A stretch of 39,263 nt of DNA from a virus (taxonomy: Duplodnaviria > Heunggongvirae > Uroviricota > Caudoviricetes): the IMG/VR virus record IMGVR_UViG_2506520037_000005, positions 1 to 39,263 of that record; one strand, written 5' to 3'. The notes below the pieces were generated by a model that did no database searches, was not told the DNA's origin, and saw nothing but the letters and a program-made list of their open reading frames with translations. Position numbers and translations under genes: made by a program. Positions 1 through 39,263 of this stretch are shown piece by piece. Every line of letters starts with the position of its first letter. The stretch's first letter is position 1.

Positions 1-258
1 ATGCAAACCGTTATTTTTGGTCGTTCGGGTTGCCCTTACTGTGTGCGTGCAAAAGATCTGGCTGAGAAATTGAGCAATGAACGCGATGATTTTCAGTATC
101 AGTATGTAGATATTCGTGCGGAAGGGATCACTAAAGAAGATCTACAACAAAAGGCAGGTAAACCCGTAGAAACCGTGCCGCAGATTTTTGTCGATCAGCA
201 ACATATCGGCGGCTATACCGATTTTGCTGCATGGGTGAAAGAAAATCTGGACGCCTGA
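1..258 (+). CDS. grxA: Glutaredoxin 1
   Basis: 85-aa ORF with CPYC active-site motif (GCPYCVRAK); sequence recognised from memory as E. coli GrxA; sits beside ybjM/ybjL as in E. coli. Confidence 0.9.
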   Translation: MQTVIFGRSGCPYCVRAKDLAEKLSNERDDFQYQYVDIRAEGITKEDLQQKAGKPVETVPQIFVDQQHIGGYTDFAAWVKENLDA

Positions 259-267
259 TCGTCTGAC

Positions 268-300
268 AAGCCCTCGCGTTGAGGGCTTTACTGATTTTTT
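268..300. terminator. Hairpin between convergent grxA and ybjM (aagccctc-loop-gagggctt, then T-rich)
   Basis: 8-bp inverted repeat seen directly; the T-run is not immediately adjacent, so the call is weak. Confidence 0.4.
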
Positions 301-665
301 CTGTGCTGTGGTTTAAACAAACTACTGATAAATAAGAAACACAGTGCCCCCAGCGCACACCAGAACACCGCGCTTAGTAACCATGCCAGCTCTTGCCAGA
401 ATGAGCGCGTCGGTGAAAAAAACAGCCGCATAATGAGCATTGAACAGGGTGCCGCCAGCATTGCGCCAAATAGAGGTTTCAGGACTTCTCTACGCTGTGA
501 AAAGAAGCTGGCGACTGCTCCAGGAAGAATGAAAAATAGCAAGCCGATTTCAGGATGCCCGGCAGCCCGAAAAGCGCCTTTCATGTGCGTCGCCAGAAAA
601 AGGCACACCACAATGAAGAGGACAAAACAGCAGATTGCCCCCGCCCAACGTTGTTTATGTTTCAC
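288..665 (-). CDS. ybjM: Inner membrane protein YbjM
   Basis: 125-aa hydrophobic ORF with several predicted TM segments; position between grxA and ybjL matches the E. coli locus. Confidence 0.75.
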   Translation of the reverse strand: MKHKQRWAGAICCFVLFIVVCLFLATHMKGAFRAAGHPEIGLLFFILPGAVASFFSQRREVLKPLFGAMLAAPCSMLIMRLFFSPTRSFWQELAWLLSAVFWCALGALCFLFISSLFKPQHRKNQ

Positions 666-934
666 TCGTTCCTCCTGACACTGCGTCTATCGAACACATT
701 TTTCGCCAGTGTGGCGTTCAGTAAGATAAAGCCGCTTCGCATTCCATGCTAATATAGGCCAACGCAATTCATATAGCCGTTGATACCTAATGTGATTACA
801 CTAGTAAAATATATTGTTACTTTACTATCGTTTAGGTGCGCTGAATGAATCTGCGCCCTGAATTCTGGTAAAAAACATTATCGTAAATTACCATTTCTTT
901 CAACAGCTTACTAGTAAACAAGAAGTTAGCCTCC

Positions 935-2620
935 GTGAATATAAACGTCGCCGAATTGTTAAATGGGAATTACATTCTGTTATTATTTGTGGTCCTCGCG
1001 CTTGGGCTATGTCTCGGAAAGTTACGACTTGGTTCGATCCAACTGGGTAATTCCATTGGCGTTTTAGTCGTATCGCTGTTATTAGGCCAACAACATTTCA
1101 GCATTAACACCGATGCGCTTAATCTTGGCTTTATGCTGTTTATTTTCTGCGTCGGGGTCGAAGCCGGACCGAACTTTTTTTCCATTTTTTTTCGCGATGG
1201 GAAAAATTACCTAATGTTAGCACTGGTGATGGTTGGCAGTGCGCTGGTGATCGCCTTAGGGTTAGGTAAGCTGTTTGGCTGGGATATTGGCCTGACGGCC
1301 GGTATGTTAGCAGGCTCTATGACGTCGACACCGGTTCTGGTCGGTGCTGGCGATACACTGCGTCATTCCGGCATGGAAAGCAGGCAGCTCTCACTGGCAC
1401 TGGATAATCTGAGCCTCGGGTATGCCTTAACCTATTTAATCGGTCTGGTGAGTTTGATTGTTGGTGCGCGTTACTTGCCGAAATTGCAGCATCAAGACTT
1501 ACAGACCAGCGCCCAGCAAATCGCCCGCGAACGTGGCCTGGACACTGATGCCAACCGTAAGGTTTATTTACCGGTGATCCGCGCCTATCGCGTCGGCCCG
1601 GAGCTGGTGGCCTGGACAGACGGCAAAAATCTGCGTGAACTGGGTATTTATCGACAAACCGGCTGCTACATTGAACGTATTCGACGTAACGGGATTCTGG
1701 CAAATCCAGACGGTGATGCCGTGCTACAAATGGGCGATGAAATAGCGTTGGTAGGCTATCCCGACGCCCATGCCCGACTCGATCCCAGCTTCCGTAACGG
1801 TAAAGAAGTTTTCGATCGTGACCTTCTCGACATGCGTATCGTCACTGAAGAAGTGGTCGTTAAAAACCATAACGCTGTAGGTAAGCGTCTCGCACAACTG
1901 AAGTTGACCGATCACGGTTGCTTCCTTAACCGCGTCATTCGTAGCCAGATTGAGATGCCGATAGATGACAACGTCGTGCTTAACAAAGGTGACGTTTTAC
2001 AAGTCAGCGGTGATGCCCGTCGCGTAAAAACCATCGCCGATCGCATCGGCTTTATCTCGATTCACAGCCAGGTCACTGACCTGCTGGCATTTTGCGCCTT
2101 CTTTGTTATTGGGCTGATGATCGGGATGATCACCTTCCAGTTCAGCACATTCAGTTTCGGCATGGGGAACGCTGCCGGGTTGTTATTCGCCGGAATTATG
2201 CTGGGCTTTATGCGTGCTAACCACCCGACCTTCGGTTACATTCCGCAAGGTGCATTAAGCATGGTGAAAGAGTTCGGCTTGATGGTGTTTATGGCAGGCG
2301 TTGGTCTGAGCGCCGGTAGCGGTATTAATAACGGCCTGGGCGCGATTGGCGGTCAGATGTTGATTGCCGGATTAATTGTCAGTCTTGTGCCCGTGGTTAT
2401 CTGTTTCTTGTTCGGTGCTTATGTATTGCGAATGAACCGCGCACTGTTGTTCGGCGCAATGATGGGCGCACGCACCTGCGCGCCGGCAATGGAGATCATC
2501 AGTGATACAGCTCGCAGTAACATCCCGGCGCTGGGCTATGCGGGCACCTATGCAATCGCCAACGTCCTGCTGACGCTGGCAGGGACAATCATCGTCATGG
2601 TATGGCCAGGATTAGGATAA
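935..2620 (+). CDS. ybjL: Putative transporter YbjL (AAE family, two TM domains flanking TrkA-C-like domains)
   Basis: 561-aa ORF with hydrophobic N- and C-terminal blocks and a soluble central region; recognised as E. coli YbjL; probable GTG start. Confidence 0.85.
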
Positions 2621-2732
2621 AACTGAAGTTGCCCTGAAAATGAAATTTTTTTGCACAACCGCAGAACTTTTCCGCAGGGCATCAGTCTTAATTAGTGCCA
2701 CTGCTTTTCTTTGATGTCCCCATTTTGTGGAG

Positions 2733-2776
2733 CCCATCAACCCCGCCATTTCGGTTCAAGGTTGATGGGTTTTTTG
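2733..2776 (+). terminator. Rho-independent terminator downstream of ybjL
   Basis: Perfect 10-bp inverted repeat cccatcaacc / ggttgatggg followed by TTTTTT. Confidence 0.6.
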
Positions 2777-2855
2777 TTGCCTGAAATTTAAGATGTTTAA
2801 AATCATGATGTTAGAAGCACTGTTTTTTAACGATGGCGACAAAATGGCGGCAGCG

Positions 2856-3074
2856 TCAAAGAGAGAGCGCCACCTGTCCTGATTTCATTGGATGCGGCTG
2901 AACTGGATTCGACTCTTTTGGTGTTGCAATCGAACGAACAAAAGTTTCATGGGTAACAAAAGTATGGCTGCAGTTAATGTTCTGGCACTGGTTATAACGC
3001 TCTTTGGTCAATGAAGATACCTGAAAACTGCTGCGAGTATGGGCGGCACTTCCACACAGTGGGCAAATCATCAT
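2856..3074 (-). CDS. ogr: Ogr/Delta-type zinc-finger late-gene transcription activator
   Basis: 72 aa from internal ATG (MMICPLCGSAAH...CQNINC); CxxC-N-CxxxxC zinc-finger pattern and position next to D as in P2. The longer ORF-track start is probably not used. Confidence 0.8.
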   Translation of the reverse strand: MMICPLCGSAAHTRSSFQVSSLTKERYNQCQNINCSHTFVTHETFVRSIATPKESNPVQPHPMKSGQVALSL

Positions 3075-3164
3075 TTTTCGAGTTCTCCCCATTTTTGCTA
3101 AATTCACAACAATGATACCGTATTATTCCATTTTGCAAACTTAAAAGTTCTCCATTGCGAAGAA

Positions 3165-4265
3165 TCATTCCATTTCGAAATCATCAATCCTCACTTCAAG
3201 CTCCAGACTGGTCGTAAAACCGTTATCCGGGTTGACGGTATGTGTCAGGGTGGTAATGGTCCATTCCGCATCATCTATCGGCTGTTTAAAGCCGCTGACC
3301 TTCACAGGCATTTCCGTGTAGAGATCCGCCCGACCTTCCGCCAGTTGTAGCGAGAATGACGCAACACCGCGTTGCAGGCGTTCCCACTGCATTTTCGCTG
3401 CCCGTTCGGCGTTACTCCGATTAGCATAGGTGCGATTAAGTACCAGCACGTTTTCATCCGTCCCCACCAGGTAATCGCCCTGCTTCGCTTCCGGCTCTTT
3501 CTTCTGCTTCTTAGTCCTGCGCTTACGCTTCACCGTGGTGCTTTCTTTCTTCGCGGGTTCGCGGGTATGCAACCAGCTGGCAATTACACCCGTGTAAGCT
3601 CCGCGATCCGCCAGGGTAAAGCGGTGACTGTCGCCGTCCTTACGTGTGATAGTGATCACCGGTAGTGGTTTACCGCTGGCGCTTTTACCCTGTCCCTGCC
3701 GGATGAATAACAGATTGCCATTTTTCACCGACGCAATAGCACCGTACTGTCGCGCCAGCCGCATCAGAAAACTGCCGTCACTCTCATTAGTCTGGTCTAT
3801 ATGCTCCACGGGCTTATCCGACAGGTCTTTACCCAGTGCCATCTTCAGCTTGTGCCGCGCGGCTATTTCCTTCACCACTTCCCCGATGGTGGTGTTATGC
3901 CACGATTTTTCACGGCGGGTATTCAGCGTTTCACGAAAATCAGCACTTCGCGCCCGGATAGTCAGGCGGTCCGGTGCGCCAGTGTGTTCAATCTCGTCCA
4001 CCGTGAATGCCCCTTTCGGGAAAAGCGGCAGCCCCTTCCAGCCCAGCGCCAGCGTAATGACCGCACCACGGCGCGGCAGCACGATTTTTCCGTCGGCGTC
4101 GTCCAGCTCCAGATCAAGCTGGTCCGCTTCAAAGCCCCGATTGTCCGTCAGCGTCAAACTCATCAGGCGGTTATCCAGCACAGTGGTGATATCCCTGCCC
4201 TCAATACTGATGCTGAATGCGGGAGTTTTGTTGCCTTTGTTAAGCACTTCAGAGCTGAAATTCAC
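3165..4265 (-). CDS. D: Tail protein D (late control gene D)
   Basis: 366-aa ORF; position and similarity to P2 gpD as recalled; overlaps U stop/start. Confidence 0.85.
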   Translation of the reverse strand: MNFSSEVLNKGNKTPAFSISIEGRDITTVLDNRLMSLTLTDNRGFEADQLDLELDDADGKIVLPRRGAVITLALGWKGLPLFPKGAFTVDEIEHTGAPDRLTIRARSADFRETLNTRREKSWHNTTIGEVVKEIAARHKLKMALGKDLSDKPVEHIDQTNESDGSFLMRLARQYGAIASVKNGNLLFIRQGQGKSASGKPLPVITITRKDGDSHRFTLADRGAYTGVIASWLHTREPAKKESTTVKRKRRTKKQKKEPEAKQGDYLVGTDENVLVLNRTYANRSNAERAAKMQWERLQRGVASFSLQLAEGRADLYTEMPVKVSGFKQPIDDAEWTITTLTHTVNPDNGFTTSLELEVRIDDFEME

Positions 4266-10144: not shown

Positions 10145-10711
10145 TCAGGGGGATTCATTACTCTTATTTGCCGGAAATTTTCTATAAATTGTGGAAACAC
10201 CCACATCAAAAATCAGTGCAATACGCTGTCTTGATTCTCCGGCCTCGAGTAAGCGTCCAATCTGTGCCCACTGTTCGGTGGTCAACTTAGGACGGCGTCC
10301 ACCTACTCTGCCTTTGGCGCGAGCTGCAGCAAGCCCCGCCCTGGTACGTTCAACTATCAGTTCGCGTTCCATTTCAGCCAGGGCACCCATGACATGAAAA
10401 AAGAAACGGCCCATTGGGGTACTGGTATCAATACTGTCAGTCAGGCTTCGGAAATTCACACCTCGCTGGCGCAACTCTTCTATCAACGTAACAAGATGCC
10501 GCATACTGCGCCCCAACCTGTCCAGCTTCCAGACAACCAAAGTGTCACCTGCCGATAATGTCCTGAGCAGTTTTTTCAGTCCCGGTCTGTCGGACTTAGT
10601 GCCACTGATTTTGTCCTCAAAAATCCGCTCACATCCCGCGCAGTTCAGCGCATTACGTTGCAAATCGGTGTTCTGGTCATTTGTTGACACGCGTACATAG
10701 CCAATAAGCAT
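10145..10711 (-). CDS. Serine DNA invertase (Gin/Hin/Pin/Cin family)
   Basis: MLIGYVRVSTNDQNTDLQRNAL... with catalytic-serine motif and C-terminal HTH; near-collinear with Mu Gin as recalled. Real start is probably the ATG giving MLIGY (188 aa). Confidence 0.9.
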   Translation of the reverse strand: MLIGYVRVSTNDQNTDLQRNALNCAGCERIFEDKISGTKSDRPGLKKLLRTLSAGDTLVVWKLDRLGRSMRHLVTLIEELRQRGVNFRSLTDSIDTSTPMGRFFFHVMGALAEMERELIVERTRAGLAAARAKGRVGGRRPKLTTEQWAQIGRLLEAGESRQRIALIFDVGVSTIYRKFPANKSNESP

Positions 10712-10766
10712 GATCAATCCCCTGAATAAAAACCGGGGATGATGCCAGTTAGCCGTTATCTCTGCA

Positions 10767-10792
10767 TTTTCATAAACGTTGGTTTGGGAGAA
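10767..10792. other. Invertase crossover site, right (26-bp imperfect palindrome, gix/hix-like)
   Basis: TTTTCATAAACG TT GGTTTGGGAGAA; its right 14 bp are identical to the inverted copy inside gene H; lies 55 bp from the invertase start. Confidence 0.75.
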
Positions 10793-11122
10793 GCCAGATA
10801 TGTCATTCAGCGAGGAGCTAATGCCAATGGTGCATGGATACGCTGGTCAGATGGTGCAATAGAAGTATTTGGAACCGGTGGATCTAATGATAATGGACTG
10901 GCTAAAGTTGTTTACCCAATTGCACTGCCTAAACTTTCACGTTTTATCAGTATCGCGGAAAGAATAAGAACGGATTACGAGAGCACACCTAATAATGTTC
11001 ACGTTTCAATGATCGTGGATGATCAGGTAACAAATACCGGCTTTTATGCCCGCTGCCAGATGTACGACGGCAGACCATCATCAAATGCTTTTTCCTGGAG
11101 GGTTTATTGTGCGCCTGTTTAA
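10781..11122 (+). CDS. Promoterless alternative tail-fibre C-terminal segment (Sv'), expressed only after inversion
   Basis: The plus-strand ORF reads GLGE... in the same frame and from the same shared 14-bp core as the H gene; inversion would fuse the H constant part to this 113-codon segment. Confidence 0.6.
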   Translation, partial: GLGEARYVIQRGANANGAWIRWSDGAIEVFGTGGSNDNGLAKVVYPIALPKLSRFISIAERIRTDYESTPNNVHVSMIVDDQVTNTGFYARCQMYDGRPSSNAFSWRVYCAPV

Positions 11123-11141
11123 TCCAGTTACTTTGTAGTGG

Positions 11142-12398
<1,257 letters not shown>

Positions 12399-26908: not shown

Positions 26909-28690
26909 TCATTTAAAACGTGTTGCAATATCTGCTGCTTCGATAACTGTTGCTTTTACGGTATTATCGCCAGCACGATAATAAATATCCCCATCATAAC
27001 TAGAATAAGATGCTAGAAGTGGAATTGTAATAACTATAACTCCATAACCATAAAAGTCATTATAGTCAATCAAACTCACCACTTGTGATTTAAGAGGCTC
27101 ACTCAAAGCAGATTTTTTCAACTCATCGCAAAAACGTCTATAATATTCTTCCATTGATATGCCGAGTTTAATAGCTTCTCTTTTAACACCAACAACACTT
27201 CTCTCACCAACTACATGTGCATCTATATCATCAAGCTCTTTTACTCTACTTGTATCACTTGGTTTATCTGTTACACCAAGCAATAACTTACCAACTACAC
27301 CGTTCTTGTTACCTTTACCGATGTTAGCAATAGCACAAATTGTGGAGAATATTTTCTCATGAATGCCATCATCAATAGTTCGCTCTCCGCCTAACATCAA
27401 CAAACCCTGTTTCAGTTCATAATTTGCAAGCTCTATTTCAGATCTTCGTAAAATATCCTCAATATCCACCGTATTGTGAGAATTATAGATATGACTGCTA
27501 TCGGCGCTATCAATAAAGTTATCTTTAATCAAGCCTATGATAGAATTAATATTCTTTCTTCTCTCTTCCCCACCAGTAGCAGATCTTTTAGTATCTAGTC
27601 GAGTGACTATATTATTAAGATTGTCTTTTACACCTTTATAATTATTAATCTTCTTATTTTCTTTAATGAGTAATTCATGAAAAGCAATAAATAACACAGC
27701 AAATATGGCTGGGAAAGCATTTGTAGTACGTTTAGTAAAGATTAAATCCCTGAGTTTAATTTCACCGTCACTATTACATACTTTTGTTATTTCCTGGATG
27801 CAGAATTTAAACTCTTCTGCAAATTTTCCTTCACCATAAACATTAATAGCAGAGCTAATACGACTATACTCTTCATCTTCATTATTATAAATCTGATCAA
27901 GCGCATCTTTGGAACGATCTATTAACTTACCTCCAACAATACAAGCTGCTATATCTGCAATGCATTGCTCATCCATACTGTCACGAAGGTCTGTTGAACG
28001 TAAGATCCCATGTTTTACCCAAAATACTTCTTCCGACTGAATTTGGTAACCATGTTTAGTTAGTGGCAAATCAATGCTAATAGACGGCATTTGCTCTAAA
28101 AGCAATATGTCGTCAGATACATCCCCCCTGATAGAACAGGCAATATCCCTAACCATATTTGAAAATTTATTTTGTATACCAGCCTGGCGCCTTTCTTGAT
28201 CACTAAGTCTATGCCCGTATGTATTAATTCTATCAAAAACATCATTTATTTCGTTCTCAGTCGCATTACGCATAATGGACATTGCAAGAGAATAATCCAA
28301 TAACTGAGTAACCTCACGCTGACTTAAAAGATTATCAGCTTTCACTGCAACAAACTTACCTTCATCCGCTCGATTTTTCGCTGTGGGAAAAGCGTCCAGA
28401 TTAAAACGTTTTCCATCAAGTGATTCATATCCTGTTTCGATGAAAGACATTATTGCATGTAATCTTTGTAGGCCATCAATTATTTCATATGTGCCAGGAT
28501 CATTTTCCCTTTCCGCGAGAAGAACTGCAGGAATTGGATATTTTTTTTGAATGGATTCAATTAATTTTTGTTTCTCTATTGCAGTCCAAACTAATTTTCG
28601 TTGATAACGTCTATTAACAAATATCTTACCTTCAGTAAACCATGAATAAATAGTTTGTATAGAAGTTGTTTGCGGTAATAGTTCAGCCAT
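26909..28690 (-). CDS. DUF262 (ParB-like nuclease superfamily) protein, 593 aa, candidate anti-phage defence protein
   Basis: N-terminal DUF262 signature motifs (NRRYQRKLVW; IIDGLQRL, a DGQQR variant); AT-rich codon usage; lies in the Q-to-A variable region. No recognisable HNH motif in the C-terminal half. Confidence 0.7.
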   Translation of the reverse strand: MAELLPQTTSIQTIYSWFTEGKIFVNRRYQRKLVWTAIEKQKLIESIQKKYPIPAVLLAERENDPGTYEIIDGLQRLHAIMSFIETGYESLDGKRFNLDAFPTAKNRADEGKFVAVKADNLLSQREVTQLLDYSLAMSIMRNATENEINDVFDRINTYGHRLSDQERRQAGIQNKFSNMVRDIACSIRGDVSDDILLLEQMPSISIDLPLTKHGYQIQSEEVFWVKHGILRSTDLRDSMDEQCIADIAACIVGGKLIDRSKDALDQIYNNEDEEYSRISSAINVYGEGKFAEEFKFCIQEITKVCNSDGEIKLRDLIFTKRTTNAFPAIFAVLFIAFHELLIKENKKINNYKGVKDNLNNIVTRLDTKRSATGGEERRKNINSIIGLIKDNFIDSADSSHIYNSHNTVDIEDILRRSEIELANYELKQGLLMLGGERTIDDGIHEKIFSTICAIANIGKGNKNGVVGKLLLGVTDKPSDTSRVKELDDIDAHVVGERSVVGVKREAIKLGISMEEYYRRFCDELKKSALSEPLKSQVVSLIDYNDFYGYGVIVITIPLLASYSSYDGDIYYRAGDNTVKATVIEAADIATRFK

Positions 28691-28824
28691 GAAACAAATT
28701 CCTTCTTCTGGATAGAATTTTATAATATAGAAACTGAAAAGGTTAAGTTACCATCAAAAATGATGATAGCAACAAAAAGATACCATTTTGTAATTTTTTG
28801 TTCAGATTTTCATATCAGAGCGCG

Positions 28825-28843
28825 CTCGTATCCCCGCCACGCC
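28825..28843 (-). other. Candidate cos cohesive-end core (GGCGTGGCGGGGATACGAG on the minus strand)
   Basis: Resembles the P2/186 19-nt cohesive end as I recall it (GGCG[A/T]GGCGGGGAAAGCA); that recollection is itself uncertain. Confidence 0.25.
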
Positions 28844-29222
28844 TGCCCGCTTTATGCAGTGGTTTTCATGCACATGCATGACATGAGCAAAAGCCCGCCA
28901 GTTCTGGCGGATCTGAGCAAAGACGATCCTCAATCGATCATGCGATTTCATGCAGCATAGTCATGCACTGTCAAGGAAGTGAAAATCCGTATCTGAATGG
29001 CCACTTGAAAAACGGATCATACGGGTTTACAAAGATGAATGTTCGCTGTGAACGGGAAGCGGAAGTTAACTTTCAGATAACATAATCCATATGCACGAGA
29101 ACCTCTAAAATAGAATGGGACACCTAAGTGGGGTACTTACAACGATTCTTTCCATATTCACAGTTAACACTCTGTTTGGCGTATTTTTATTCAAATAGCA
29201 AACACCAATAAAAGGAGTTTCC

Positions 29223-29558
29223 ATGAACAATATTCCCCCTATACCACAGTTAGGAATTTATGTCTCAAAAATCGATCCCACCCTACGTATCACTGTAACC
29301 GATGTTGATATTGTTGATGGTGAGGATGATTCTCCTGATGATGAATTGTTTTATTTAGTCCACTGGATCGAGGGGGAAGATGAAAGTGATATGACAGCAA
29401 TGGGATTTGAGCTAGACCCAGTAGAGTGGCAGGCTTTCGTTGAATCTGAGCAATTAGTGTTTGAGCGTGATCCGTACATGGATTCAATCCCCGAAAATTC
29501 AAACTTGGCAAAGATTCGGGATTTTCTCATGAAGACTAAACAGAATGATCATTCGTAA
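29223..29558 (+). CDS. Small, strongly acidic hypothetical protein (111 aa)
   Basis: Good Shine-Dalgarno (AAAAGGAG) 7 nt upstream of the ATG; Asp/Glu-rich (DGEDDSPDDE, EGEDESD); AT-rich. Confidence 0.6.
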   Translation: MNNIPPIPQLGIYVSKIDPTLRITVTDVDIVDGEDDSPDDELFYLVHWIEGEDESDMTAMGFELDPVEWQAFVESEQLVFERDPYMDSIPENSNLAKIRDFLMKTKQNDHS

Positions 29559-29750
29559 GTGTAAGCATCCATCAGGAAAATGGTTTTGTAAGTGAATCAT
29601 CAACTTTTAGAGAGTCTCAGACACTCCCACTTCTGCTTCTGACACAAAGCGGACGATCACTTATCAAAATAACCGCCCACCTTACGCCTTATTTCACTCA
29701 TTGCCCAAACTAGCCCCCATCAGAATGAATCCTCCTGGGGGCAACATTTC

Positions 29751-35968: not shown

Positions 35969-36058
35969 GGTGCAACATTCCTTCTTTAATTCGGCTTGTG
36001 GCGAGCCGTTGTTTATCGTGATTAGTTGTGAAGGCTCCAAAAGAAGACTTCGAGGTCA

Positions 36059-36088
36059 ACTTTAAGATCGCTTTTGGAATCTGTCAAT
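36059..36088 (-). promoter_or_regulatory. Candidate early lytic promoter pR (-35 TTGACA, 17-bp spacer, -10 TAAAGT)
   Basis: Consensus -35 and acceptable -10 read on the minus strand upstream of apl, in the face-to-face position expected for a 186-type switch. Confidence 0.45.
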
Positions 36089-36114
36089 GCAATTTAGATT
36101 GTTTTGGAGGACTC

Positions 36115-36678
36115 TTGAATTTCAATAGCGGCGGAAAGAAAGTGATTGAACGTTTGGTTGAGGCGTATGGTTTCACCACTCGTCAGGCCCTTTGCGACCA
36201 CTTAGGGGTTTCAAAGAGCACAATGGCAACCCGCTACATGCGTGACATTTTTCCAGCAGATTGGGTACTTCAATGCGTTGTAGAAACTGGTACTTCAATT
36301 GATTGGCTGGTATCAGGGAAAGGTGAGTTAAAAACCACAGCAGTCAACTCTTTGGTAGACGTTGAAACTCGCGAACTAAAAAATGGAGAGGCTATTGCAC
36401 TTGGAACGCACAAGATTGATCCAGTCTTTCTTCTCAATGAAATAAAATCTGCATTAGCGATAAAAATTAACCAACATGTTTACATTTGTGACCGAGAAGA
36501 CACTACCATTTCTGATGGTCAATGGTTGGTGGATATAGAAGGAAAACTGAGTATTAAAAAAATCAATTTGATACCAGTCAAAAGAGCAATGGTATCTGGG
36601 GATGGTTTTTCATTTGAATGTGATATTAGTGATATAAAACCTATAGCTAAGGTTCATACCGTAATCAGTGAGGCTTAA
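36115..36678 (+). CDS. cI: CI-type immunity repressor (186 CI-like, N-terminal HTH)
   Basis: HTH segment (TTRQALCDHLGVSKSTMATRYMR) and about 190-aa size. Start is uncertain: the ORF opens at 36028, but an in-frame TTG at 36115 follows a GGAGG. Confidence 0.7.
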   Translation: MNFNSGGKKVIERLVEAYGFTTRQALCDHLGVSKSTMATRYMRDIFPADWVLQCVVETGTSIDWLVSGKGELKTTAVNSLVDVETRELKNGEAIALGTHKIDPVFLLNEIKSALAIKINQHVYICDREDTTISDGQWLVDIEGKLSIKKINLIPVKRAMVSGDGFSFECDISDIKPIAKVHTVISEA

Positions 36679-38130
36679 ATGGATATTGAGTGGAATTGGG
36701 ATCAAGATGACGAATTTCTTGGTGAAAAATTACCTGCAGATACATTGGACAGAAAAAAGTACGCAAAATATCTTTATGAAATCTGTGCTGCACGCGGTGC
36801 TAAATCCAATCTCGTAGTTAACATTAATGCGGAATGGGGGGCTGGAAAAACATATTTTACTAAACGCCTAGCCAAGACAATTTCCCACTACCATCCCACA
36901 ATATACATTGATGCTTGGAAAGAAGATTTTACTGAAGACCCATTGCTCACAGTATTTAGTGGAATTAAAGATCAATTATCTGGTCAATCTGATAGCTTTA
37001 CTGCTTTAATCAATTCAACAATTGAGAATGTCGGTCCTTTGCTAAAAACAGCGGCACCAGTTATTATTGATGGATTAATACAAAAGTTCACAGGGGTTGA
37101 CTCCTTTTCTAACCTAACTAAAGACTTATCATCTAAGCTAATAGAAATACACGCAGAAAAATCAACGAGAATAGAGACAGTAAGAAAAGGAATTAGTCGT
37201 TGGGTTGAATTCATTGGGCGAAAAGATGGAATAGATAAAGAGCTTCCATTATTTATAATAATTGATGAACTTGATAGATGTAGGCCCGATTTTTCCATTA
37301 GTCTTTTAGAAATCTCCAAGCATATTTTTAACATCCCTGGCGTAGTATTTATTATTGCCACTGACACCCAACAATTACAGCATTCAATAAAAGTTATATA
37401 TGGCACTAATTTTTCAGCAAGTCATTATCTAAGCAGGTTTTTTGACCGTCGATTCCTTCTCCCAACGCCAGAATACAAAGACTTACTATTAACAAAAACA
37501 GGTGAAAACATAATTTCGGAATTTAATTCTTTACGTGAAAAATTAATTCCATGCCCACAAGACATCACATCATTTGTTAAAAATTGTTCATCCATATTAT
37601 TATCCATAAAAATAAACATCAGAGACGCTGTAAAAATATACGAGAGGCTAATAGACATACTTATCACGTCAAATAAAACATTTGACCCCAATCTAATGTT
37701 GATATTATCTGCATTTAATTTCAAAGATCATGATGTATATGCAAAAATAAAATCAAAAGAAAAGCTAATTCCTAGTCCTCTCAACACAGAAATAGATTTA
37801 TCATTTGATTTATCTTATGAAACTACACAAGTCAAGTACTTCCAAGCTAATGGTGGTGTTTATAGTAATACGTATAAACAAAAAGAAATTTCAACAAATG
37901 TTCTATTTTACATAGAGACTGCTTGGAACACCTTAACGATAGCAAGAACCGCACCTGTTGGCACGCGACCTTACAATACTCCAGAACTTTGGATGGAAGG
38001 AGAGTTGTCTCAGGAGGAATCATTAGCGAACTTTCTCAAAATGGGATACGCCAAAAGCCGGTACAATGAAAGTGAACTAAAAATTCATCAATATTTCGAT
38101 TTAATTGAACTGAGCACAACATTTGATTGA
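36679..38130 (+). CDS. KAP-family P-loop NTPase (PifA-like), candidate phage-exclusion protein
   Basis: Walker A EWGAGKT and the KAP-type Walker B FIIIDELDRCRP; ATG follows the cI stop codon directly; AT-rich. Confidence 0.75.
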   Translation: MDIEWNWDQDDEFLGEKLPADTLDRKKYAKYLYEICAARGAKSNLVVNINAEWGAGKTYFTKRLAKTISHYHPTIYIDAWKEDFTEDPLLTVFSGIKDQLSGQSDSFTALINSTIENVGPLLKTAAPVIIDGLIQKFTGVDSFSNLTKDLSSKLIEIHAEKSTRIETVRKGISRWVEFIGRKDGIDKELPLFIIIDELDRCRPDFSISLLEISKHIFNIPGVVFIIATDTQQLQHSIKVIYGTNFSASHYLSRFFDRRFLLPTPEYKDLLLTKTGENIISEFNSLREKLIPCPQDITSFVKNCSSILLSIKINIRDAVKIYERLIDILITSNKTFDPNLMLILSAFNFKDHDVYAKIKSKEKLIPSPLNTEIDLSFDLSYETTQVKYFQANGGVYSNTYKQKEISTNVLFYIETAWNTLTIARTAPVGTRPYNTPELWMEGELSQEESLANFLKMGYAKSRYNESELKIHQYFDLIELSTTFD

Positions 38131-38210: not shown

Positions 38211-39263
38211 ATGGCAGTACGAAAACTCGACACAGGTAAATGGATATGCGAATGCTACCCCGCCGGGCGCAGCGGACGGCGTGTGCGTAAGCAATTCGCC
38301 ACCAAAGGTGAAGCGTTAGCATTTGAACGGCACATAATGGAGGAAACTGAAGCTAAGCCCTGGCTGGGTGAATCGGTAGATCGCCGAACTCTGAAAGACG
38401 TCGTTGAACTCTGGTTCAAACTGCACGGCAAATCTCTGACCGCTGGCGAGCATGTTTACGACAAGCTGATCCTGATGGTCGAAGCTCTCGGAAATCCCCT
38501 CGCCACCGATTTAACATCCAAAATGTTCGCGCACTATCGCGATAAACGCCTGACAGGAGAGATCTACTTCAGCGAGAAATGGAAGAAAGGAGCAAGCCCG
38601 GTCACTATTAATCTGGAGCAAAGCTATCTAAGTAGTGTTTTTAGCGAACTATCCCGCCTGGGCGAATGGTCGTATCCGAACCCACTGGAGAACATGCGAA
38701 AATTCACCATCGCAGAAAAAGAGATGGCATGGCTTACCCATGAGCAGATTGTTGAATTGCTGGCTGATTGCAAACGTCAGGACCCAATTCTGGCACTGGT
38801 AGTTAAGATATGCTTAAGCACAGGCGCACGCTGGCGTGAAGCCGTAAATCTTACCCGCTCGCAGGTGACCAAATACCGAATTACCTTTGTAAGAACGAAG
38901 GGGAAGAAAAACAGAAGCATCCCTATCAGTAAAGAGCTTTACGAAGAGATCATGGCGCTTGATGGGTTCAATTTCTTCACAGACTGCTATTTTCAATTTT
39001 TATCCGTGATGGAAAAAACGTCTATCGTGCTGCCTCGCGGTCAACTGACACACGTTCTGCGCCATACGTTTGCGGCGCACTTCATGATGTCGGGTGGAAA
39101 CATCCTGGCCTTACAAAAAATTCTCGGACACCACGATATAAAAATGACTATGCGTTATGCGCATCTGGCACCGGATCATCTGGAAACGGCGCTCCGTTTC
39201 AATCCTCTGGCAACATTGCCAAGTGGCGACAAAGTGGCGGCAGCGGTTGGCATTACCCCGTAA
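38211..39263 (+). CDS. int: Tyrosine integrase (P2/186 family)
   Basis: 350-aa ORF; C-terminal catalytic region with R...HxxR...Y (VLRHTFAAH...MRYAHL); stop codon is the last 3 nt of the window. Confidence 0.9.
   Translation: MAVRKLDTGKWICECYPAGRSGRRVRKQFATKGEALAFERHIMEETEAKPWLGESVDRRTLKDVVELWFKLHGKSLTAGEHVYDKLILMVEALGNPLATDLTSKMFAHYRDKRLTGEIYFSEKWKKGASPVTINLEQSYLSSVFSELSRLGEWSYPNPLENMRKFTIAEKEMAWLTHEQIVELLADCKRQDPILALVVKICLSTGARWREAVNLTRSQVTKYRITFVRTKGKKNRSIPISKELYEEIMALDGFNFFTDCYFQFLSVMEKTSIVLPRGQLTHVLRHTFAAHFMMSGGNILALQKILGHHDIKMTMRYAHLAPDHLETALRFNPLATLPSGDKVAAAVGITP

What the first reader, a model, noticed from the sequence alone, without database searches (positions are those of the whole stretch)
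29223..29558. Strongly acidic small protein beside the DUF262 gene
A 111-aa ORF with a strong SD is highly enriched in Asp and Glu (DGEDDSPDDE, EGEDESD) and lies on the opposite strand between the DUF262 gene and the SOS operon. Small acidic phage proteins are often DNA mimics or anti-restriction factors such as Ocr or ArdA, or they can be immunity partners of an adjacent defence protein.
Basis: inference. Interest (0 to 1): 0.5.

Follow-up and report, generated by a model that had tools for sequence, protein, structure and literature searches.

The report
Orphan acidic prophage protein (DUF8087)
The acidic 111-residue gene is real and kept by selection, but it is an uncharacterised accessory gene (DUF8087) of P2-type prophages that was displaced from a repressor-integrase operon to a spot beside the phage cos site, and it is not a partner of the neighbouring DUF262 gene; its function is still unknown.

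Summary
The ORF is confirmed: 29223-29558 (+), 111 aa, AAGGAG Shine-Dalgarno, pI 4.05, net charge -19. The window is a Fels-2/186-type P2-like prophage.

- **Identity.** The protein is 100% identical to WP_001059831 of E. coli BL21(DE3) and W. It belongs to Pfam DUF8087 (PF26332) and phrog_17127, both of unknown function.
- **Selection.** dN/dS is 0.1-0.25, and acidity is conserved across a small family of 34 cluster representatives.
- **No link to DUF262.** The phage cos site lies between the two genes. The identical ORF sits beside five different cargos, including retrons Eco1 and Ec67. The identical DUF262 gene also occurs without it.
- **Native context.** In P2-like prophages the gene sits in the lysogeny operon cI - Flk_N-like - DUF8087 - int. 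The window copy is a displaced cassette that still carries 16 codons of an integrase start, and probably the tail of the Flk-like gene.
- **Fold.** The AF2 model (pLDDT 84) is a small SH3/Tudor-like barrel with acidic loops. It shows no relation to Ocr, ArdA or KlcA.

A decoy or DNA-mimic role, analogous to CarS, is plausible but untested. Interest is modest.

The parts
29223..29558 (+). DUF8087 (PF26332 / phrog_17127) gene: 111 aa, pI 4.05, net charge -19. Predicted small beta-barrel (strands 11-15, 22-31, 43-50, 61-64, 78-82) with helices 66-76 and 94-109. Acidic loops at residues 32-42 and 51-60.
29212..29217 (+). Shine-Dalgarno AAGGAG, 5 nt upstream of the ATG; conserved in all standalone copies
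29109..29198 (+). Probable 3' relic of the upstream Flk_N-like tail-anchored gene. The frame reads ...LSGVLTTILSIFTVNTLFGVFLFK*, which resembles the C-terminal TM tail ...LLAGILLGAVLFK* of intact Flk_N-like genes. This is inferred. The match is significant only for the Serratia copy (E 2e-4).
29545..29595 (+). 16-codon relic of a P2-type integrase start (MIIRKCKHPSGKWFCK*). It overlaps the DUF8087 stop by 14 nt, exactly as intact int genes do in native operons.
29102..29594 (+). Extent of the displaced cassette shared (87%) with copies in non-P2 islands of E. coli
28970..29740 (.). The cos-to-tum variable slot, equivalent to the old/tin position of P2. It holds the cassette here and in BL21, is empty in phage 813R9, and holds other cargo in Fels-2 and UMNK88.
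28820..28969 (.). Conserved cos block, found in 1300 of 5426 E. coli genomes. The cohesive-end-like 19-mer is at 28825-28843 (minus strand GGCGTGGCGGGGATACGAG). It separates the ORF from the DUF262 slot.
   Evidence: resemblance to the 186 cos sequence is from memory

Best explanation
Shown: this is a genuine, selection-maintained member of the uncharacterised DUF8087 family, an accessory ('moron') gene of P2-family integrative elements. Its native place is the lysogenic operon, cI repressor - Flk_N-like tail-anchored protein - DUF8087 - integrase, where its stop overlaps the int start by 14 nt. In more distant elements it sits immediately after int. The window copy is a displaced cassette. 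It has lost its flanking genes except for a 16-codon int stub, and probably the TM tail of the Flk-like gene. It now lies in the cos-to-tum slot of the P2 defence hotspot. That slot assorts independently of the DUF262 slot on the other side of cos. Inferred: the product is a stand-alone, cytoplasmic, polyanionic small beta-barrel. It has an SH3/Tudor-like topology and two positionally conserved acidic loops. I propose that it is made in the lysogen and works by binding and sequestering a basic, nucleic-acid-binding surface of another protein, as a decoy or nucleic-acid mimic in the manner of CarS. The purpose would be phage-phage or phage-host conflict, or lysogeny control. The target is unknown, as is the direction (exclusion of competitors versus counter-defence).
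Against: There is no functional, expression or interaction evidence of any kind. No sigma-70-like promoter was found on the + strand between cos and the ATG. The conserved upstream DNA appears to be a coding relic rather than a promoter, so expression of this copy is unproven. Structural similarity to any characterised protein is weak: Foldseek finds nothing at E <= 0.001 in PDB or BFVD. The tight, translationally coupled linkage to int in several lineages could instead mean an integrase-specific role.
Confidence: 0.4

Rival explanations
1. Ocr/ArdA-type anti-restriction DNA mimic: made as the element enters a new cell, it blocks type I (or other) restriction or BREX by imitating DNA.
For: Strong, conserved acidity. 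It is carried by several kinds of integrative element. In this prophage it lies about 380 bp from the cos end and is transcribed inward. In the native operon it would be transcribed from the repressor promoter as soon as the DNA enters.
Against: No Pfam match at E <= 0.1 to any family, Ocr, ArdA and Antirestrict (KlcA/ArdB) included. No PDB sequence or fold match. A compact barrel is predicted, not an elongated helical mimic. It is absent from all 50,697 deposited phage genomes and present in only 1 of 72,556 plasmids. A survey of P2/P4 hotspots found recognised anti-defence genes to be rare in P2 (28 elements; PMC13586616). Its native position is the lysogenic operon.
Confidence: 0.2
2. Lysogeny-module factor: a partner or modulator of the P2-type integrase, or of the cI/Cox-Apl/Tum switch (a CarS-like antirepressor or anti-antirepressor). 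It would tune integration, excision or prophage stability.
For: It is adjacent to and co-oriented with tyrosine integrases, often with overlapping ORFs, in at least six divergent lineages. It lies upstream of int in some and downstream in others. It sits directly in the cI-int transcript. CarS shows that an acidic SH3-like protein can sequester a repressor's recognition helix.
Against: It is accessory. Of 1300 E. coli genomes with a match to the cos-region query (mostly the cos block), about 140 match at >=99%, and the ORF alone is at >=99% identity in 132 genomes. Standalone copies keep the ORF under purifying selection while the adjoining int is destroyed. Prophage ends and the cI-int interval are also generic moron slots; this prophage has a KAP NTPase there.
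Confidence: 0.15
3. Silent relic: in this position the cassette has lost its native promoter and is not expressed. Its integrity in E. coli would only reflect recent spread of one prophage lineage.
For: It is flanked by truncated neighbours. No consensus promoter was found. 132 E. coli copies are >=99% identical, and many are laboratory B derivatives. The region is AT-rich (40% GC), and the neighbouring AT-rich retron locus in the BL21 prophage is H-NS-silenced (bioRxiv 10.64898/2026.09.05.749240).
Against: Standalone copies in eight genera remain full-length with dN/dS 0.1-0.25, while the adjoining int stub has acquired stops. A strong SD is retained.
Confidence: 0.15
4. Immunity or antitoxin partner, or regulator, of the adjacent DUF262/GmrSD_N protein.
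For: Physical proximity (533 bp apart, divergent). Acidic inhibitors of modification-dependent nucleases exist: T4 IPI* against GmrSD and Arn against McrBC (from memory). Distant homologues sit immediately upstream of an SRA-HNH nuclease gene.
Against: cos lies between the two genes. Only 12 of 214 genomes with the ORF have the DUF262 gene. The identical ORF is paired with five different left-slot cargos. The identical DUF262 gene occurs without it in UMNK88, and only 12 of the 18 genomes with that gene also have the ORF.
Confidence: 0.02

Closest known systems
Pfam DUF8087 (PF26332) / PHROG 17127; WP_001059831.1 of E. coli BL21(DE3) and W
   Same: Identical sequence. Full-length match to the PHROG profile (E 2e-70). 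The same prophage slot next to cos and the DinI-like/tum gene.
   Different: Nothing differs. This is the family, and it has no assigned function and no paper in the searched library.
CarS antirepressor of Myxococcus xanthus (PMC2926617)
   Same: Small (86-111 aa), pI about 4.1, five-stranded SH3-like barrel with acidic loops. CarS shows that such a scaffold can mimic operator DNA and sequester a recognition helix.
Ocr (T7 gp0.3), ArdA, KlcA/ArdB anti-restriction proteins
   Same: Small, strongly acidic, carried by mobile elements.
   Different: No sequence or fold similarity. A compact barrel is predicted rather than an elongated DNA-shaped dimer. It is encoded in a lysogenic operon, and it is virtually absent from plasmids and from deposited phage genomes.
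P2 old/tin and other cos-proximal hotspot cargo of P2-like phages (Rousset et al. 2022, PMC9122126)
   Same: It occupies the gpA-to-cos position that old and tin occupy in P2. It is flanked by swappable defence cargo.
   Different: It is far smaller than the typical cargo and has no enzymatic, NTPase or membrane domain. No anti-phage activity has been tested. It arrived here as a fragment of a lysogeny operon.
Lysogeny-module morons between repressor and integrase (e.g. lactococcal Sie2009, S. thermophilus Ltp; recalled from memory)
   Same: The native position is between cI and int, co-transcribed with the repressor, and next to a membrane-anchored protein (Flk_N-like).
   Different: Those exclusion proteins are membrane or lipoproteins. 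DUF8087 is soluble and acidic.
DUF1653 (PDB 3be3), FeoA, Tudor/CarD-type small barrels
   Different: Scores are at the level of a shared small-barrel topology only, with 3-14% identity and no functional implication.

Membership tests
DUF8087 (PF26332) / phrog_17127 | Full-length sequence match to the family profile | tested here: met
   phrog_17127 at E 2e-70, residues 1-111 of 111. PF26332 is precomputed for all 61 plus 27 homologues. PGAP labels the identical gene DUF8087. The local Pfam-A copy does not contain this model (0 hits).
Ocr / ArdA / KlcA-ArdB anti-restriction proteins | Sequence homology to PF08684, PF07275 or PF03230 (accessions quoted from memory) | tested here: not met
   No Pfam-A hit at E <= 0.1. 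No PDB chain at E <= 10 with the family profile.
Ocr / ArdA / KlcA-ArdB anti-restriction proteins | Fold: elongated, largely helical (Ocr) or three-domain (ArdA) dimer with DNA-like charge spacing | tested here: not met
Ocr / ArdA / KlcA-ArdB anti-restriction proteins | Strong net negative charge | tested here: met
   pI 4.05, net charge -19. Conserved family-wide.
Ocr / ArdA / KlcA-ArdB anti-restriction proteins | Inhibits type I restriction-modification in vivo or in vitro | not testable with these tools
   Needs EOP or transformation assays with EcoKI/EcoBI.
Cognate immunity/antitoxin partner of the DUF262 (GmrSD_N) protein | Conserved co-occurrence and operon linkage with the partner | tested here: not met
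   Only 12 of 214 genomes with the ORF carry both genes. There are five different neighbours. DUF262 occurs without it. cos lies between the two genes, which are divergent.
CarS-like SH3-fold DNA-mimic antirepressor | SH3-like five-stranded barrel, highly acidic | tested here: inconclusive
CarS-like SH3-fold DNA-mimic antirepressor | Binds the DNA-recognition helix of a repressor and displaces operator DNA | not testable with these tools
   Needs binding assays with cI, Apl/Cox, Int or Tum.
P2 cos-proximal hotspot cargo (Rousset et al. 2022) | Located between gpA and gpQ next to cos, in a segment that varies between otherwise collinear prophages | tested here: met
P2 cos-proximal hotspot cargo (Rousset et al. 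2022) | Confers anti-phage protection | not testable with these tools
   No PADLOC model matches. Needs phage challenge assays.

The most novel reading that the evidence does not exclude
DUF8087 founds a new class of SH3-like polyanionic decoy proteins carried in the repressor-integrase operon of P2-family phages and satellites. It would neutralise a specific DNA-binding protein, either a host immune nuclease or a competitor phage's replication or regulatory protein. If so, an unrecognised (anti-)defence factor has been sitting in E. coli BL21(DE3) and W.
Probability: 0.25. Interest if true: 0.6.

Novelty: new member of a known kind. Interest (0 to 1): 0.3.

Why it matters
If the protein proves to be a decoy that blocks a defence system or a competitor phage, it would add a small, easily engineered inhibitor scaffold to the phage-host arms-race toolbox. 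It would also reveal an overlooked activity in BL21(DE3) and E. coli W, two of the most used laboratory and industrial strains. Independently of function, the locus gives a clean example of hotspot loading in P2-like phages. A fragment of a lysogeny operon, still bearing stubs of its neighbours, was transplanted next to cos. The two slots flanking cos exchange cargo independently. As it stands, it is an ordinary uncharacterised accessory gene.

Tried and rejected
- **Family scans.** Pfam, NCBIfam and PADLOC scans of the ORF found nothing.
- **Structure comparisons.** A PDB sequence-profile search found nothing. Foldseek against BFVD and PDB found nothing at E <= 0.001. The AFDB50 library was unavailable.
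- **Literature.** Searches for DUF8087, PF26332, WP_001059831 and phrog_17127 returned no papers. Searches on DNA mimics in P2-like prophages and on the BL21 retron prophage gave context but nothing on this gene.
- **cos sequence.** I searched for the P2 cohesive-end sequence with up to 3 mismatches and found none. The cos here is of the 186/Fels-2 type and was found by reading the conserved block.
- **DNA entry order.** I tried to establish which end of P2 DNA enters the cell first, to test an Ocr-like 'first gene in' idea. No usable source was found, so the argument was dropped.
- **Own-promoter idea.** I first read the conserved 75-120 bp upstream as the cassette's own promoter. I rejected this once it was seen to be the 3' end of the upstream Flk_N-like gene.
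- **Collection scans.** Scans with the divergent alignment failed for lack of a conserved peptide. The closer alignment returned only 5 species genomes.
- **Flk_N pairing.** The idea that Flk_N-like and DUF8087 are an obligate pair was rejected. Phage 520873 has a Flk_N-like gene without DUF8087, and standalone DUF8087 copies lack Flk_N.

Full report
**1. Observation**

An AAGGAG Shine-Dalgarno sits at 29212-29217, five bases before the start. The product has 26 Asp+Glu against 7 Lys+Arg, a net charge of -19 and a pI of 4.05. It contains both quoted motifs, at residues 32-41 and 50-56. The local GC content is 40%, against 50% for the window.

It is not a chance ORF. A word-indexed search found 61 clusters at 50-98% identity, all Enterobacterales and all carrying the precomputed Pfam label PF26332. 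An exhaustive profile search of 1.84 billion representatives found 34 proteins at E <= 1e-3. Pairwise dN/dS between the window gene and copies from eight other genera is 0.1-0.25.

**2. What the window is**

- **Prophage type.** The portal (Phage_portal), replication protein (Phage_GPA) and DinI-like/tum gene identify a P2-like prophage, as do the 186-type CI repressor, CII/CP76 and a P2-type integrase. Megablast matches to Fels-2, RE2010 and Klebsiella Peduoviridae place it in the Fels-2/186 branch.
- **Strains.** Over the hotspot region (portal to gpA) it is essentially the prophage of E. coli W and strain 88-3493. From 28820 rightwards it is 99.7% identical to the P2-like prophage remnant of BL21(DE3).
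- **Identity.** The ORF product is identical to WP_001059831.1. RefSeq annotates it as 'hypothetical protein' or 'DUF8087 domain-containing protein'. It matches phrog_17127 (unknown function) end to end at E 2e-70.
- **Literature.** No paper in the searchable library mentions the family, the accession or the PHROG.

**3. Anatomy of the neighbourhood**

Between the DUF262 gene and the ORF lies a 150-bp block, 28820-28969. It is conserved at about 88-91% in phage 813R9 and Fels-2 and in most of the 1300 E. coli genomes with a match. On the minus strand it contains GGCGTGGCGGGGATACGAG (28825-28843). Rousset et al. place the P2 hotspot 'adjacent to the cos site ... between gpA and gpQ' (PMC9122126).

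The block divides the hotspot into two slots.

The left slot (portal to cos) holds:
- the DUF262/GmrSD_N protein here, with a weak AlbA_2 match and a PADLOC NsnA hit at E 8e-31;
- retron Eco1/St85-type RT plus effector in BL21;
- retron Ec67 in OkiPb01683;
- an ORC/CDC6-like ATPase in 1008S19;
- an unknown 469-aa protein in H15;
- a Hypoth_Ymh protein in phage 813R9.

The right slot (cos to tum, 28970-29740) is the position of old and tin in P2. It holds:
- the acidic ORF here and in BL21;
- nothing in 813R9;
- a 243-aa unknown protein in Fels-2;
- two other unknown genes in UMNK88, which nevertheless has the identical DUF262 gene.

The counts agree. The ORF is in 214 of 5426 E. coli genomes. 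The DUF262 gene is in 18 at >=99% identity. Both occur together in only 12. The two slots therefore assort independently, and the 'partner of DUF262' reading is rejected.

**4. Where the gene comes from**

Context look-ups show a recurrent native arrangement in P2-like prophages: cI-type HTH repressor, then a roughly 210-aa Flk_N-like protein with a C-terminal hydrophobic tail, then DUF8087, then integrase. All four are co-oriented, and the DUF8087 stop overlaps the int start. This arrangement is seen in Klebsiella, Buttiauxella and two further prophages, where the overlap is 14 nt.

More distant relatives (30-45% identity, 70-106 aa) also sit beside an integrase:
- C - int - DUF8087, with an 8-nt overlap, at the att end of another P2-like prophage.
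- int - DUF8087 - SRA_HNH - HTH_17 - Phage_GPA, followed by Hachiman or STAND-NTPase cargo, in small metagenomic elements.
- A related Nitrosospira element, where DUF8087 instead lies between the HTH_17/GPA pair and the integrase, next to a TIR-STAND gene.

The 'standalone' copies occur in several places:
- an E. coli integrative island next to IS1182 and a 1589-aa SF1 helicase, the context that probably accounts for the 80 genomes matching at 90-95% identity;
- a Morganella island, after a helicase-PLD protein;
- Serratia, Lonsdalea, Proteus and Symbiopectobacterium;
- beside a filamentous prophage in Xenorhabdus.

In six of these the ORF is followed, at or near that overlap, by 28-62 matched codons of a P2-type integrase N-terminus (tblastn E 1e-9 to 1e-18). 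Some of these stubs carry stop codons. The window keeps only 16 such codons: 29545-29595, MIIRKCKHPSGKWFCK*.

Upstream, the DNA that is conserved with all standalone copies reads in frame as a hydrophobic tail ending ...LFGVFLFK* (29109-29198). It resembles the ...LLGAVLFK* end of intact Flk_N-like genes. For the Serratia fonticola copy the match is significant (E 2e-4). For the window it is only suggestive.

So the window copy is a relic cassette cut out of a lysogeny operon and lodged next to cos. The ORF has stayed intact under purifying selection while both neighbours decayed. This argues for an autonomous function. It also means that the conserved upstream DNA is not evidence of a promoter. 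The simple sigma-70 scan finds none between cos and the ATG.

**5. The protein**

- **Model.** With a 67-sequence alignment, AlphaFold2 gives mean pLDDT 84.4 and pTM 0.71. The elements are strands 11-15, 22-31, 43-50, 61-64 and 78-82, helix 66-76, a short helix 84-87, and a C-terminal helix 94-109 that only the enterobacterial proteins possess. The acidic insert 32-42 is the least confident part and varies in length; some relatives lack it.
- **Conserved acidity.** Every family member is acidic, with pI 4.05-4.53 and net charge -8 to -22. Acidic character is conserved at defined positions: 27, 32-35, 38, 40-41, 51, 53, 56, 63, 65, 67 and 68. D56, E63 and E68 are nearly invariant, next to invariant P8, G11 and W69.
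- **Reading.** This pattern fits a specific acidic interaction surface on a rigid barrel better than a generic 'acidic tail'.

**6. Mechanism**

The shown facts are identity, selection, origin, and independence from DUF262. The rest is inference.

The native position, co-transcribed with the immunity repressor and integrase, predicts expression in the lysogen and immediately on entry. The slots it occupies otherwise hold defence-type cargo. Examples are the KAP NTPase between cI and int in this very prophage and old/tin in P2.

A soluble 8-13 kDa polyanion with no catalytic motif most plausibly acts by binding a basic, nucleic-acid-binding surface of another protein. CarS shows that an acidic SH3-like barrel of pI 4.1 can mimic operator DNA (PMC2926617). 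I therefore favour a decoy or mimic mechanism, at roughly 0.4 including all targets. I cannot say whether the target is a competitor phage protein (exclusion), a host nuclease (counter-defence) or a component of the element's own switch or integrase.

- **Against classical anti-restriction.** There is no relation to Ocr, ArdA or KlcA. The family is absent from 50,697 deposited phage genomes and found in only one of 72,556 plasmids. Recognised anti-defence genes are rare in P2 hotspots (PMC13586616).
- **For an integrase- or lysogeny-specific role.** The family is linked to int repeatedly, on either side of it.
- **Against an integrase- or lysogeny-specific role.** The family has a patchy, accessory distribution, and the ORF survives where int has been destroyed.

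**7. Comparison and novelty**

The gene is a catalogued but uncharacterised family member (DUF8087 / phrog_17127) and a typical small hotspot 'moron'. It is not a member of any characterised anti-restriction, defence or toxin-antitoxin family that I could test.

Three points are new here: the reconstruction of its native operon, its relic status next to cos, and the demonstration that the two cos-flanking slots exchange cargo independently. None of this is very surprising to a specialist. The main attraction is that the gene sits in BL21(DE3) and E. coli W and is trivially testable.

**8. Verdict**

The DUF262-partner idea is refuted and Ocr/ArdA membership is not met.
- Interest is 0.3.

Noticed in passing
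window 36679-38130 (+), between cI (36028-36678) and int (38211-39263): A 483-aa KAP-family P-loop NTPase is inserted in this prophage's own repressor-integrase operon. This is the same slot that holds Flk_N-like plus DUF8087 in other P2-like prophages. It is a likely lysogen-expressed defence candidate.
   Followed up: partly
window 26909-28690 (-): The neighbouring 593-aa protein has a GmrSD_N/DUF262 N-terminal domain (E 1.6e-22) but no DUF1524/HNH nuclease domain. Instead it has a weak Schlafen AlbA_2 match at residues 445-580. Its best PADLOC hit is NsnA (Menshen) at E 8e-31. It is found in only 18 E. coli genomes, including W and KO11FL.
   Followed up: partly
window 28820-28969: A conserved cos block with a 186-like cohesive-end sequence splits the P2 'hotspot' into two independently swapping slots. 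The 66-aa ORF at 28760-28960 that overlaps it is probably spurious.
   Followed up: yes
window 10145-12355: A serine invertase/resolvase gene (10145-10717) sits next to an IS3-family element (orfA 12008-12355, orfB/rve 11142-11888), apparently inserted in the tail-fibre region of the prophage. This may make the phage defective.
   Followed up: no
L024 1880-2179, L025 1443-1733, L026 1297-1587, L023 7001-7306: The metagenomic elements L024-L026 have the backbone integrase - DUF8087 - SRA_HNH nuclease - HTH_17 - Phage_GPA replicase, with variable defence cargo: Hachiman HamA/HamB, or AAA_22 plus a STAND NTPase. The Nitrosospira element L023 is a rearranged relative carrying a TIR-STAND gene. Their DUF8087 proteins carry a basic N-terminal extension (MGQAKxRGxxExRIAQA). 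They look like an undescribed satellite-like or island family with a P2-type replicase.
   Followed up: partly
L005 6343-6990, L032 4341-4976, L033 4342-4971, L031 6227-6970; L034 3001-3565: A roughly 210-aa Flk_N-like protein with a C-terminal hydrophobic anchor sits between cI and DUF8087 in several P2-like prophages. It also occurs, apparently frameshifted and unannotated, between repressor and integrase in Escherichia phage 520873, without DUF8087. It is a candidate superinfection-exclusion protein.
   Followed up: partly
L036 4650-6351 (E. coli UMNK88): The cos-to-tum slot of an otherwise identical prophage carries three different hypothetical genes (178, 316 and 42 aa) in place of the DUF8087 cassette.
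   Followed up: no
L002/L022 (E. coli FDAARGOS_497, CH10508), L010 (Morganella), L013 (Serratia fonticola): Standalone DUF8087 copies lie in integrative islands beside large defence-like genes. These are a 1589-aa Sacsin/HATPase-like plus SF1 helicase protein, a 1169-aa AAA_11/AAA_12 plus PLDc_2 helicase-nuclease (Mokosh-II-like, my reading), and an AAA_23/MC2/CTD6 conflict system.
   Followed up: partly
It is convergent with the acidic ORF. A 7-bp GC-rich inverted repeat (GCCCCCA...TGGGGGC, about 29713-29742) lies between them and may serve as a terminator.
   Followed up: no
window 935-2620 (+): A host gene for an Asp-Al_Ex/TrkA_C transporter (YbjL-like, my reading) lies at the left edge of the window. 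It lies outside the phage genes, although the BL21 copy has a different host flank (rcdA/ybjJ) and the att sites were not mapped.
   Followed up: no
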